Positions 45,501 to 51,500 of a DNA stretch of 64,000 nucleotides are shown here, one piece after another. Position numbers and translations under genes: made by a program. How positions within the stretch are numbered: the stretch's first letter is position 1; every line of letters begins with the position of its first letter. The notes under the pieces were generated by a model. That model had not been told where the DNA came from. It ran no database searches and worked only from the letters and a program-made list of their open reading frames with translations. Source of the stretch: Tubulanus polymorphus (Eukaryota; Animalia; Nemertea); assembly GCF_964204645.1 (NCBI RefSeq), contig NC_134025.1, positions 2,356,001 to 2,420,000 of the forward strand. The letters run 5' to 3'.

Positions 45501-48500
45501 ATTTCGTTACAAATTAATTCCAGAGTGAAAAGATCGCTTTTCTGTTGGATGAATCGAACGTAATGGATTCCGGTTTCTTGGAACGAATGAATACTTTATT
45601 GGCGAATGGTGAAGTTCCGGGTTTGTTCGAGGGTGATGAATATACGACGCTGATGACGCAGTGTAAAGAAGGAGCTCAGCGTAACGGTTTGATGTTAGAT
45701 TCCGGTGAGGAATTGTATAAATGGTTCACGCAACAAGTCACGCGTAATCTTCACGTAGTGTTCACTATGAACCCTTCGACAGACGGACTGAAAGACAGAG
45801 CTGCTACTTCACCAGCGCTGTTCAACAGGTTCGTTTAATATTTTCATCACTCAAACAGTAATCGTGTTCCTACATTACCGAGGTATATTCACTCACTGAT
45901 TTTCACACTCAATTTGTAGATGTGTCCTGAATTGGTTCGGCGATTGGTCAAATGGAGCGTTGTTTTCTGTCGGCAAAGAATTCACGAACAAGATCGATCT
46001 TGACAAATCTGGTGTAAGTTATTTTTCATCATGGGCTAATCTTTAGATTTAAGAATTTGGTCATTTTGTTTCTGAAGTCATATTTTAACAACTAAGACCG
46101 GTCTATGCTCATATTGGTTCTCAAAGACCAGTCTATGCTCATATTGGTTCTTAAAGAGCAGTCTATGCTCATATTGGTTCTTATGTCAATCAAACAACTT
46201 AAGAACTTGAGTCATAACTGCACATCGTTGTCTATATAGTAGAATGATATACCTTGTAATGATTATGAAACGTTTATTTCAACAGTACATACCATCTGAT
46301 GATCTACCAGTAGCGTACGAAGGTCTATCAATACCTCCGTGTCACAGAGATGCTGTAGTGAATGCATTCGTCTACGTTCATCAGACTTTACATCAGGCGA
46401 ATGAACGAGTGATAAAACGAGGTGGTCGAACTATGGCGATAACACCGAGACATTACCTCGATTTCATTAATCACTACGTAAGCTTAAATACTGTCAAACA
46501 AACTCGATATGACATCTAAATGTCTTTATAGTCGATTTATTTCCCCAATAGGTTAAACTCTTCAATGAGAAACGCTCGGATTTGGAAGAACAGCAACTTC
46601 ATTTGAACGTCGGACTTCAGAAGATCAGGGAGACCGTAGAACAGGTGGAAGAATTACAGAAATCGCTGTCAATCAAACGACAAGAACTCGAAGAGAAAAA
46701 CAACGCTGCTAACTTAAAACTGAAACAAATGGTTCGTCAGTTTACACGTATCAAATCAAGGCTTTCATTAAACTATTCTCGCTTAATCGAAACTAGAAAT
46801 GATACAATTTGCTCGAATTCAGGTGAAAGATCAACAAGAAGCTGAAAGAAAGAAAGTGGCATCGCAGGAAATTCAACAGAATCTACGCGAACAAACGAAA
46901 GTTATTTCTGAGAAGAAAGTATTCGTTATGAACGACCTCGCTCAAGTGGAACCGGCAGTTATTGAAGCTCAGAATGGTAAGATTAATGTTTACTCATTGT
47001 TTATAACATTCAACAATATTTCGAATTTAAAACTGCCTTAAGTATTAATAATGATAATCACTATGGCTCTGTAATATAAACTCGTATTTATAAACGTATG
47101 GCCTTTGAGACAATACGGTCTGCTATATCATGGCTCTGATATGCAATTTTATTATCGATTCCAAGTTCCAATTCCTGTAAATTGAGCGTTTGCGAGTAAA
47201 ATGTGCACCTGCTAATTTCCTTTTCATCATCATTTGGTTTGGGGAAATGTTTTTGTTCTACGCGCATATTGTGTTTCAAGCTCCTTTCTTCTCCTGTGAG
47301 GGCGGCTAGACATTCATTCCACTTATAGAAATAGTACTTTTTATTTGCTTCATTTTCATGTGCAATACAGCCTCAATAAACCTGACCATAATTCAGACAA
47401 TATTCATACGTAGCCACAGGTTATTTAGACTGTATAATTCAATTGATTTAGTTAATCAGTTATCAGGAATTCAGGATTTAAAAAATGAACAGTTTCATGA
47501 AAAAGTTAAAAACGGTTAAGTTTTGAATTCTTGTCCTCATTGAAAACTCTGAATAACCAAAAATATGAGTTTAACTTTTCCGTGGAGCTTGACCCAGGAC
47601 CGACTTCCACAGTTCCCCTCAAGGTTAAAACATCAATTTTTACTGCAATCAAACGTCTGCAACTGTGGGTCTCGGTCCTGCATTCCATCCATAAATATTG
47701 AAGGTTTTATGACTTTTACTCTGCGAGATTTATATATATATATAGAAAATTTTTAAAATGATGATTCAAATAATTACATGTACATTTAAAAGAATCATAA
47801 AACCTGATGCATTTATGAATTATTTGCTTTGGTCCGTCTGAGTGATCCGCGGAGGTAGCAGACTCTTGTTTCGTATGCCTTGATTTTGTTTTACCCTACA
47901 GCTGTGAAATCTATTAAGAAACAGCATTTGGTGGAAGTTCGAGCCCTCGGTAATCCACCTACTATCATAAAGGTGGCGTTGGAATCAATTTGTACATTAC
48001 TCGGCGAGCCTGACCTTGACTGGAAGGCTATGCGTAGTATAATAATGAAAGAGAACTTCATATCGACTATTGTCAACTTCTCTACTGATGACATTACGTA
48101 AGTTTTTTGGCAGCCACCAGTTGTTGCTCGCGGTTGATGTTGTTACATAGGGAAGATCGGTTCACCGGTGTATCCAATTTATATACAATAAACCCTGTTT
48201 AATCCGGATCAAAATCCATCTCTAACTGATTGGAATAAGATTGTATATTGGCGATCCTGAGGAATGTTGAAGTGAGATTGAATATTTTAGAGATCGTTTC
48301 ATACATAAATTGGAATATGCTCTGAACCTATGTTCCATGGGATGTATCCTCACCACAGCGCTGGTGCTGCCCTTTGTGGCTGTTAGTAATCATAGTTCAG
48401 TGTTATAACTCTTTCATTTTGTCAGCTGTGAAATCGATCAAGAGGCAACACTTAGTCGAGGTGAAATCTATGGGTAACCCACCCCCCGTGGTTAAACTCA

Positions 48501-51500
48501 CTATGGAGTCAATCTGTTTACTCCTCGGTGAGCCGGCCTCTGACTGGAAAACCATTCGTACCACTATCATGAAAGATAACTTCATCCCTACAATTGTCAA
48601 CTTCTCAACTGATGATATATCGTAAGTCTTCTATTGAACTTGGTGCACGAGACCAGCCACAGCAGCAGCAGCCGTAGCTTCCCCTCCCTGCATGATCATC
48701 GGGATGTGGACTACCGTACAATCAGCTTGCATTGTTAAACCAACCCCAGTTGGAAGTCATACAAAAAATATTACTCTCAAATTTTCTCTCCCTTTCAATT
48801 AGAATACAGTAGTATTTTCTAATTTTCTATCTAATCTGGAAAGTTTCAAGTTTCTCCTGGAGATGGGCCTCTATGCAGTTATATATCTGAATTCAGTTTA
48901 ATGTCCTATAGTTGAAGGAATAGCTTGTTACAATGTTGATTTGTGTAGTAGGTCTCTTTGCGTACGTATGCATTTCAATGTTGTTAGTTTAGTCAATTCT
49001 TTGGTGAGTAAATGAAGCATCTTCTAGGAAGCCATTTTGGAATTGCTTTTTTGCACATTTTGCCTATGATTTAGTTTAAGTTACATACATATATATATTA
49101 GTCTGATTTCCCCTTTATCCGGTATCCAATCAGTAGTGCATCAAGTAAATAGTAAGACTAATAAAAACTCTTCATTTATTCTATGATTATTGCATGCATT
49201 TTTTATGATGTTATTAGTAAACTGTGTCTATTTTTAATGTAGTAATTCGTTAATGATTTGTGCTGAGATAAATAATGTGTCATTGGAAAATATATATTAA
49301 AATCTTACGATGTGTCTAAAGAAAGTTCTTTAATCATGCATTTCAAAAAAATGTTCTGTCAATGTTTTCAGATGTTTTCACGTTTAACTTTTGATCAATT
49401 TCAGCGATGACATCCGTTCCAAAATGAAGACCAGATATTTGAGCAATCCGGATTATAACTTTGAGAAAGTAAACCGCGCTAGTTTAGCTTGCGGTCCGAT
49501 GGTGAAGTGGGCTATTGCACAGGTAATAGATTGGAAATTTTATTTCCAAAGAAAAATTGTTTTACTGTAGTTTGTAGTATTTAGATTGCCAGGATTTTAC
49601 GAGGCACTATTGTTTTTATACGTTCATAGATCAGTTACGCTGAAATGTTAAAGCGAGTCGAACCGTTAAGAAATGAATTATCGAGTCTGGAACGCGAAGC
49701 AGATGAGAATCGATTGAAAGGTGAAGAGTTAGAAAACTTGATCTCTGAGCTGGAAAAGAGCATTGCGAAATACAAAGAGGAATACGCCGTATTGATCAGT
49801 CAGGCTCAGGCTATTAAAGCTGATTTAGCATCTGTTGAAGGAAAGGTAAGAATTCGTTATTTCTTTAGATGATTTAAGAATGAATTGTAGTTTTCATCGA
49901 TAAGTGACCTACTTGTACATATGTGTAGGAGAAAAACCTTATGAAAGTTCAACGCCATTGCTATGAGCATTTTGGAAACAGAATTATGATTGATGTGTTT
50001 GTTTTGTAGGTTGAACGTAGTGTTGCGTTATTGAAAAGTCTCGGTAATGAGAAGGACAGATGGGAAGCTACTAGTGAAACGTTTAAGAATCAAATGTCTA
50101 CTATCACTGGTGATGTTCTGCTCTCCTCAGCATTCATGGCCTACGCCGGTATGTCTAATTTCTATCTGTTAAGTAATAGATACTGACTCGCGTAGTTTTA
50201 TGGTCTATCATATGATTGATATTTTGTTTTAAGGTTATTTCGATCAACAAATGAGACAGAATCTATTCGCAACGTGGTCTCATCACCTTCAACTGGCTAG
50301 TATACAATATAGAGGAGACCTGGCTAGAGTTGAGGTTTGTATCGGATCTTCGGGCAATTAATTATTGTTAACATTCGTTATATAATTCTGTAAATTTATT
50401 TCTATATCAGTATTTGTCCAACGCTGATGAACGCTTGCGTTGGCAAGCTAGTTCCCTACCGGCTGATGATCTATGTACGGAGAACGCTATCATGTTGAAA
50501 CGATTCAACAGATATCCATTAGTTATTGATCCGTCTGGACAGGCAACGGAATTCATCATGAACGAATATAAGGACAAGAAAATCACTAAAACGAGGTATT
50601 TCTTCGTTCAGTATGAAATATCCGCATCTAGAATCACAGTGAATCAATAAACAGCATAGTATCTTCGAGCAATATCTCACAATTGAAGACTAAAATCGGG
50701 CTAAAATCCGTTTTGAAACAAGAATTTTTGACTTTCTTGCCTTCAATCATGGGATTTTGCTTTAATCGCCTTTTTCACGGATTATTGTGTTTCAACTCAT
50801 AAAATTTCATCCGTTTTGTATATCTAGTTTCTTAGACGATGCTTTCCGCAAGAACTTAGAAAGTGCCCTACGTTTTGGTAATCCATTATTAGTACAAGAT
50901 GTCGAGAACTACGATCCTATATTGAACCCGGTGTTGAATAGAGAATTGAGACGTACCGGTGGTAGGGTTCTTATTACACTCGGAGATCAGGATATCGATC
51001 TTTCACCATCATTCACTATATTCCTATCAACTCGAGATCCTACGGTGAGTAACTCATTCGTGAAATCGCCTCGCAGTGAAATATACTCGGAAAGTTGAAG
51101 AAAATATTTATTCGCGAATTTAGGTTGAATTTCCACCCGATATCTGTTCTCGTGTGACGTTCGTGAATTTCACTGTAACTCGCAGCAGTTTACAAAGCCA
51201 ATGCCTGAACCAGGTATTGAAGGCTGAACGCCCGGATGTCGACGCTAAGAGATCCGATCTTCTCAAACTGCAAGGTAAATAAATCGATGAAATATTCTAT
51301 GAATCAATTATGAGCAGCGAACCACCCATGAAAATGGGTTTATATCCCTTGATTATGCCATATTTGATGGTAAGGCTAAAAAAAATTGATACCTTGTTTC
51401 TCCGCTCTGCTGAGCTTAAATGTTGACCCGGCCGGCCGCCTATCTACCCTATACATTATTTTTTTTAAAAATCGTGATCAATTTTACCATAACAGACCCG

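What the first reader, a model, noticed from the sequence alone, without database searches (positions are those of the whole stretch)
46977..49404. Mutually exclusive exon pair encodes two alternative microtubule-binding domains
Seen: two tandem 196-nt exons (47902-48097, 48426-48621) with identical phases (1 in, 2 out) and GTAAGT donors, both intact, heavily diverged at synonymous sites. Since 196 is not a multiple of 3, including both or neither frameshifts. Flanking introns (925 and 783 nt) are far longer than the typical 60-100 nt and lack the MITEs that explain other long introns. Established: this segment encodes MTBD helices H1-H4, and H1 and H3 contact tubulin. Differences fall there: [12 protein letters not shown] vs [12 protein letters not shown], and DWKAMRSII vs DWKTIRTTI. 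Inference: isoforms with different microtubule affinity or tubulin-code sensitivity. From memory a similar MTBD exon pair exists in some other invertebrate DHC1 genes, so this may be conserved or convergent rather than unique.
Basis: partly seen in the sequence, partly recalled or inferred. Interest (0 to 1): 0.8.

Follow-up and report, generated by a model that had tools for sequence, protein, structure and literature searches.

The report
Dynein with two interchangeable microtubule-binding exons
This animal's cytoplasmic dynein-1 gene holds two intact, long-diverged copies of the exon for the front of the motor's microtubule-binding tip, and RNA contigs indicate that both are likely used as alternatives, so the motor would come in two forms whose difference in grip on microtubules is untested.

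Summary
Observation confirmed. Exons A (47902-48097) and B (48426-48621) are 196 nt, AG..GTAAGT, each in frame alone; both or neither frameshifts. They encode MTBD helices H1-H4 of cytoplasmic dynein-1 (human 3295-3359). A second DNA run carries the same layout. In an RNA-like run, contig ends fall exactly where splicing into both A and B predicts (indirect; junction rows not seen). Synonymous sites are saturated, dN 0.18. The pair is not unique: 13 of 79 related loci (10 distinct pairs) and fish protein models have it, a 2011 paper notes a mutually exclusive pair in Schistosoma DHC1 (domain unnamed in text), and this scan found it before in two other genomes. Exon A belongs to an old A-type with its own signature residues. 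New here: a candidate intronic switch, one site before exon B that can pair after either donor; beyond shuffles, not found in six relatives. Different microtubule affinity is plausible but untested. Verdict: real, new member of a known but unstudied kind.

The parts
46823..46976 (+). upstream constitutive exon (end of stalk CC1), phase-1 donor
   Evidence: covered by RNA-like contig 9 of X2
46977..47901 (+). intron before exon A (925 nt); holds a short repeat remnant near 47490-47590 and a GC-rich hairpin
47595..47680 (+). GC-rich hairpin in the intron before exon A; role unknown
   Evidence: I4; z -3.2, 1 of 200 shuffles; region picked
47902..48097 (+). exon A, MTBD helices H1-H4, A-type signature residues
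48109..48121 (+). candidate selector after the exon A donor; predicted to pair with 48360-48371
48357..48382 (+). candidate docking site 44-69 nt before the exon B acceptor; predicted to pair with either selector
48426..48621 (+). exon B, alternative MTBD helices H1-H4
48654..48677 (+). candidate selector after the exon B donor; predicted to pair with the docking site and loop out exon B
48622..49404 (+). intron after exon B (783 nt)
   Evidence: X2 contig 12
49405..49522 (+). downstream constitutive exon (rest of the MTBD)
   Evidence: X2 contig 13 begins exactly at 49405 and splices 49520>49628

Best explanation
The cytoplasmic dynein-1 heavy-chain gene carries an old tandem duplicate of the 196-nt exon for MTBD helices H1-H4, both copies intact and in frame, and its mRNA likely takes one or the other, so the cell would make two motors that differ only in the front of the microtubule-binding domain. 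Shown: layout, frames, purifying selection, same pair in other animals. Strongly inferred: both copies spliced (contig-end geometry in an RNA-like run). Exclusivity: double inclusion or skipping frameshifts (shown) and would be removed by nonsense-mediated decay (inferred); in this species the choice is probably helped (about 40%) by a competing RNA pairing: a site before exon B first pairs just after the exon A donor as it is transcribed (favouring B, or blocking A-to-B joining), and later can re-pair more stably after the exon B donor, looping B out (favouring A). Function (about 50%): both keep the basic tubulin-facing residues, and the consistent differences sit in H2, the H2-H3 loop and helix-packing positions, so the likeliest effect is fine-tuning of binding and release in different tissues, not a new binding mode.
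For: Frames and splice sites. pS saturated vs dN 0.18. X1 contig spans the cluster. X2 is spliced RNA-like (GT..AG joints at this gene's introns, table 5). Its upstream contig ends 10 letters past the upstream exon, exactly the 10 letters that A and B share at their starts; intron contigs 11 and 12 end 30, 29, 30 and 30 letters from the A donor, B acceptor, B donor and downstream acceptor, as k=31 branch points predict, and the 29 fits entry into B from the upstream exon, which shares its last G with the intron; bins holding A or B carry 73-107 depth per exon letter beyond the listed intron contigs, intron-only bins 0 (presence only). 13 of 79 loci have two copies, 10 distinct pairs, all with AG..GT where the contig reaches, 196 or 199 nt. 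Fish: P0001, P0002, P0004 (Coryphaenoides rupestris) hold both; UniRef models of Poecilia mexicana and Xiphophorus maculatus and a Ranitomeya imitator model splice in the second copy. Window A groups with the first exons of L021, L036, L050, L053, P0003 and a Mizuhopecten exon, SH-aLRT 95; five separate duplications in those lineages rejected by AU p 0.028. RNA pairing: 1 of 300 and 2 of 300 dinucleotide shuffles reach the two duplexes; partner after B ranks 2nd among about 2100 sites of the window, partner after A 7th for the core; predicted pairing with selector A 0.99 before selector B exists, dock with selector B 1.0 after; none of 7 constitutive exons of this gene shows flank pairing below z -1.7.
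Against: No junction row for A or B was among the 15 shown (46 not shown), so splicing into A and B is deduced from contig ends, from one RNA-like run of one study; A-to-B joining is not excluded by those ends. Trees rest on 64 columns: window A+B as one clade is not rejected (AU p 0.45, 0.41), the 0.028 result is marginal (KH 0.09, SH 0.09), and one versus four origins across animals is unresolved (p 0.065, 0.054). 38 of 79 loci (26 distinct peptides) have a single copy between both flanks, so the second exon is dispensable in many lineages. The competing partner after exon B was found in 0 of 6 other paired loci; regions for the shuffle test were chosen after a scan; one unrelated site at 42952 pairs with the dock slightly better. 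No functional data; differences are not enriched in H1/H3.
Confidence: 0.8

Rival explanations
1. Both exons are used, but the two MTBDs are functionally near-equivalent; the pair persists through partitioned expression or because the splice choice (with frameshifting errors sent to decay) regulates dynein amount.
For: Charges and basic contact positions kept in both; most changes conservative; 38 of 79 loci manage with one copy.
Against: The A-type keeps its own residues across distant loci: Leu at human 3310 in 9 of 9 vs 5 of 55 others, non-Leu at 3326 in 9 of 9 vs 5 of 55, Met/Leu at 3338 in 9 of 9 vs 2 of 55, acidic at 3332 in 6 of 15 first exons and 0 of 15 second exons. The clade was defined on the same columns, so the first three counts are partly circular; the position in the pair is not.
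Confidence: 0.4
2. Exclusivity needs no RNA switch: it is enforced by frameshift plus decay and by splicing proteins, and the pairings are chance matches between GC-rich islands in AT-rich introns.
For: Partner after B absent in 6 of 6 other paired loci; the three elements lie in 50-nt bins of 50-56% GC against intron bins mostly 22-38%; whole A-B intron folds at z only -1.4; no Rfam match.
Against: Two separate partners of the same site, each within 60 nt of a donor; a stem joining the two ends of the A-B intron also beats shuffles in L036, L050, L053 (0, 0 and 1 of 40; L050 and L053 are close kin; not in L021, L030, L047).
Confidence: 0.55
3. One exon is a decaying pseudo-exon, or the repeat is an assembly artefact or part of a duplicated gene.
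For: No junction row was seen directly.
Against: Both frames and splice sites intact with saturated synonymous divergence; independent DNA contig spans it; only this exon is doubled; RNA contig ends; same pair in other animals.
Confidence: 0.04

Closest known systems
Mutually exclusive exon pair of Schistosoma mansoni DHC1 (Pillmann et al. 2011, PMC3228551, section 9; cited again in Kollmar 2016, PMC5100056)
   Same: Same gene class (cytoplasmic dynein-1 heavy chain), two homologous exons of identical length with split codons at both ends, judged mutually exclusive.
   Different: [quoted passage not shown] No expression, phylogeny, regulation or function is given there.
Vertebrate dync1h1 database models with a second MTBD exon (UniRef100_A0A3B3YGA5 Poecilia mexicana, A0A3B5PS97 Xiphophorus maculatus, CAJ0932240.1 Ranitomeya imitator, KAG7247558.1 Coryphaenoides rupestris)
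   Same: Same exon boundaries in the protein, second divergent copy spliced between the same flanks.
   Different: Neither vertebrate copy carries the A-type signature; whether the duplications share an origin is unresolved. Automatic models, no study found.
Competing RNA pairings of human ATE1 exons 7a/7b (R1R3/R3R4; PMC7797038) and docker-selector systems (PMC6071210)
   Same: One intronic element between two alternative exons with two competing partners.
   Different: [quoted passage not shown]
Arthropod muscle myosin heavy chain mutually exclusive exons (as described in PMC3228551, section 9)
   Same: Alternative exons in a cytoskeletal motor domain thought to tune mechanochemistry.
   Different: Many clusters in myosin; one cluster here, at the track-binding domain, with no functional test.

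Membership tests
Mutually exclusive exons from tandem duplication | Adjacent homologous exons of like length, compatible splice sites and phase | tested here: met
   70% amino-acid identity
Mutually exclusive exons from tandem duplication | Each exon is spliced into mRNA | tested here: met
   indirect: contig-end geometry and coverage in run X2; junction rows not seen
Mutually exclusive exons from tandem duplication | Never both, never neither, in productive mRNA | tested here: inconclusive
   both and neither frameshift; absence of A-to-B joins in RNA not shown
Cytoplasmic dynein-1 heavy chain MTBD | Sequence match to DYNC1H1 MTBD within a full dynein-1 gene | tested here: met
   (dynein-1 E 1e-24 to 1e-26; dynein-2 and axonemal about 1e-5), helices; Pfam gave no hit on the 64-aa pieces alone
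Schistosoma DHC1 exon pair of Pillmann 2011 | Same exon position (orthologous cluster) | not testable with these tools
   figure not held; supplements searched without hit; no schistosome MTBD sequence among named hits
Docker-selector competing RNA structure | One site with two mutually exclusive partners beyond chance | tested here: met
   (regions chosen after a scan)
Docker-selector competing RNA structure | Conservation or compensatory change across species | tested here: not met
   partner after B in 0 of 6 distant paired loci; no close relative was available
Docker-selector competing RNA structure | Mutation and rescue change exon choice | not testable with these tools
   needs a minigene
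Steric exclusion (branch point close to upstream donor) | Very short donor-to-branch distance between the two exons | tested here: not met
   A-B intron is 328 nt with AG dinucleotides up to 48399-48400, so no early branch point; could apply only through the predicted stem

The most novel reading that the evidence does not exclude
Cytoplasmic dynein-1, usually treated as one heavy chain diversified only by adaptors and small subunits, has in many animal lineages an ancient (possibly bilaterian-wide, later lost in some) splice switch between two functionally distinct microtubule-binding domains, and in this species the choice is set by a co-transcriptional RNA pairing switch.
Probability: 0.25. 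Interest if true: 0.8.

Novelty: new member of a known kind. Interest (0 to 1): 0.52.

Why it matters
The MTBD sets how tightly dynein holds and releases the microtubule. A natural pair of variants inside one gene is a ready-made experiment: two 64-residue swaps in existing chimera assays would show whether animals tune dynein-1 at the track-binding step. The pair occurs in fish models as well, where tissue use and exon knockouts are routine. In the papers searched here nobody has tested it. The mechanism (alternative exons from duplication) is ordinary, and a pair in DHC1 has been mentioned before, which caps the novelty.

Tried and rejected
No whole genome held. No listed holder on record as RNA; X2 proved spliced when laid; X5 gave one 38-letter piece; X4 was never laid. 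Direct junction counts for A and B were not obtained. Depth of A versus B not used for ranking (contig depth). Pfam on the exon peptides: no hit. Rfam on 46800-49600: 0 matches at E<=1. BLASTN of the three introns against the 79 loci: only low-complexity matches at E>=0.26. Pairing between the flanks of exon A: 39 of 100 shuffles as good; before-A with before-B 9 of 100. Organism not placed: best relatives of a 201-aa exon are 70% identical and spread over phyla; I name no phylum, though exon A groups with a scallop exon. Wider profile search never ran. First tree run returned nothing; trees come. No complex prediction or fold search was run: an exon-sized fragment against a filament would not be informative. 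Earlier-finding look-ups by sequence and by place were empty; one search listed RNA-switch notes on other genes that were not used. 'Not in print' rests on searches of an open-access library; subscription papers, Figure 3 of PMC3228551 and supplement file 1 of PMC5100056 (not searchable) were not seen and may name this exon.
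Full report
1. Observation. The window holds one cytoplasmic dynein-1 heavy-chain gene on the + strand from about 13.9 kb to 59.8 kb. Exons A (47902-48097) and B (48426-48621) are 196 nt each, with AG acceptors and GTAAGT donors. Either alone joins the upstream exon (46823-46976) to the downstream exon (49405-49522) in frame; both together or neither gives stops. 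They differ at 59 of 196 bases and 19 of 64 residues; pS is 0.81 (saturated) and dN 0.18, so both have long been under purifying selection. Exon A matches human DYNC1H1 3295-3359 and the solved MTBD constructs. A model of the exon (mean pLDDT 74) has helices at 6-13, 20-32, 40-47 and 52-55. No other exon of the gene is doubled among the tblastn pieces. A single contig of DNA-like run X1 spans 46277-51384, which rules out an assembly artefact.

2. Are both exons used? Run X2 (same species label) has contigs that skip this gene's introns at GT..AG. Junction rows for A and B were not among the 15 of 61 shown, so the evidence is geometric. The upstream contig has 632 letters beyond 45826; the spliced exons up to 46976 take 622; the 10 left over equal the 10 letters shared by the starts of A and B. 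An assembly graph forks there only if both continuations exist. The low-depth intron contigs 48068-48454 and 48592-49434 end 30, 29, 30 and 30 letters from the four exon edges, and the downstream contig begins at 49405. The 29 fits entry into B from the upstream exon, which ends in G as the intron does, whereas A ends in C. Bins with A or B carry 73-107 depth per exon letter beyond the listed intron contigs; intron-only bins carry none. This shows presence, not level, from one run, assumes 31-letter words, and does not exclude some A-to-B joining.

3. How widespread? Of 79 metagenome loci, 13 have two copies (10 distinct pairs), 38 have one copy between both flanking exons (26 distinct peptides) and 28 are cut short. 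All paired exons are 196 or 199 nt with AG..GT where the contig reaches. Proteins P0001, P0002 (unnamed, human-like first copy) and P0004 (Coryphaenoides rupestris) read through both copies; P0003 is another pair; models from Ranitomeya imitator, Poecilia mexicana and Xiphophorus maculatus splice in the divergent second copy. The scan's own notes report the pair in a vertebrate and an arthropod (leads, not evidence).

4. Age. In a 64-row, 64-column tree window A groups (SH-aLRT 95) with the first exons of L021, L036, L050, L053 and P0003, two truncated loci and a Mizuhopecten yessoensis exon; window B is unplaced. That group has Leu at human 3310, a smaller residue at 3326, Asp/Glu at 3332, mostly Leu at 3333 and Met/Leu at 3338; the acidic residue is in 6 of 15 first exons and 0 of 15 second exons. 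Five separate duplications in those lineages are rejected at AU p 0.028 but not by KH or SH (0.09); window A+B as a clade is not rejected (0.41-0.45); one origin versus four across all groups is unresolved (0.065, 0.054) (groups were chosen after seeing the tree). Best reading: the duplication predates the split of this animal from several other invertebrate lineages; deeper origin open.

5. What differs in the protein? PMC6629372 (passages and section 6 read) says H1 moves on binding, that H2, H3, H4 and H6 form a pre-shaped interface, and that K3299 lies near beta-tubulin D427; PMC4987762 and bioRxiv 2020.10.22.351346 (passages) discuss K3298 in H1. I take these to be the KK of H1 (inferred; the mouse-human offset is recalled). 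The first K is the same in A and B, the second is K versus R, the later H1 basic residue R versus K, and the H3 and H3-H4 basic residues are identical. K+R counts are equal. Differences: H1 2, H2 7, H3 4, H4 1, loops 5; H1+H3 not enriched (p 0.53). The durable differences are in H2, the H2-H3 loop (where axonemal dyneins carry the flap) and hydrophobic positions, which points, by inference, to altered packing or H1 movement and modest tuning.

6. How is exclusivity kept? Frameshift gives a decay backstop (inferred). The 328-nt A-B intron is too long for simple steric exclusion, unlike L049, L066, L077 and L078 (65, 108, 90, 51 nt). A duplex scan and the intron fold showed that 48357-48382, before exon B, can pair with 48109-48121 after the A donor (-22.0 kcal/mol) or with 48654-48677 after the B donor (-34.2). 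2 of 300 and 1 of 300 shuffles of the 100-nt flanks do as well; across the window the partners rank 7th (core) and 2nd; 7 constitutive exons show no such flank pairing. The first pairing is predicted at 0.99 before the second partner is transcribed, and drops to 0.14 afterwards: a kinetic switch in outline. The layout mirrors ATE1 R1R3/R3R4 (PMC7797038, passages) and is of the docker-selector kind (PMC6071210, abstract and discussion). Against: regions picked after a scan, GC-rich islands, no partner after B in 6 of 6 other loci; a stem across the A-B intron appears in 3 of 6. I give it about 40%.

7. Prior knowledge. PMC3228551 (section 9 read whole; supplements searched without hit; figure not seen) describes one mutually exclusive pair in Schistosoma mansoni DHC1, equal length, split codons at both ends, domain not named. 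PMC5100056 (passages) says some DHC genes have alternative motor-domain splice forms and did not analyse them. PMC5740500 has no DYNC1H1 mention in its main text. Searches listed no study of alternative MTBD exons (listings only, apart from the papers named); closed-access work was not searchable.

8. Verdict. Real and well supported as a mutually exclusive MTBD exon pair (both used: about 0.9). New member of a known, barely studied kind; found before by this scan on other DNA. Added here: RNA support in this species, breadth, an old A-type with signature residues, and a candidate RNA switch. Functional difference untested. Interest 0.52.

Noticed in passing
window 28847-29485 (-): Intronless 212-codon Ras-family frame (Pfam Ras E 2e-47; Rho-like by my recall of the motif, ends in CAFL) nested antisense in the 12.7-kb intron (about 20129-32835) of the dynein gene; possibly a retrocopy.
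   Followed up: partly
window about 23600-25300 and 26000-27600: Roughly 2.4-kb tandem duplication inside the same long intron (identical translated stretches 2395 nt apart).
   Followed up: no
window 7276-9395 (+): Two tandem CAP-domain (cysteine-rich secretory protein family) frames upstream of the dynein gene; the first hits Pfam CAP at E 2e-22, the second looks interrupted.
   Followed up: partly
window 51370-51600: Very high-copy short repeat in an intron (summed contig depth above 100,000 in X1 and X2), MITE-like.
   Followed up: no
window 47595-47680: GC-rich hairpin before exon A (z -3.2); the X1 difference G>A at 47669 turns a U-G pair into U-A. One site only.
   Followed up: partly
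L049, L066, L077, L078 (A-B introns): A-B introns of 65, 108, 90 and 51 nt; L066 and L078 have a branch-like CTAA motif within about 20 nt of the donor, suggesting steric exclusion in those lineages.
   Followed up: partly
L036:1008-1018 and about 65-75 nt before 1590: The exon A donor itself is predicted to pair (p about 1.0) with a site at the same distance before exon B as the window's dock.
   Followed up: partly
L030, L045-L047, L078-L079 second exons: Second exon is 199 nt, one codon longer.
   Followed up: no
L020:2428-2433: The single MTBD exon appears to use a GC donor.
   Followed up: no
window 4468-5939: Long tandem repeat with strong GC skew upstream of the gene.
   Followed up: no
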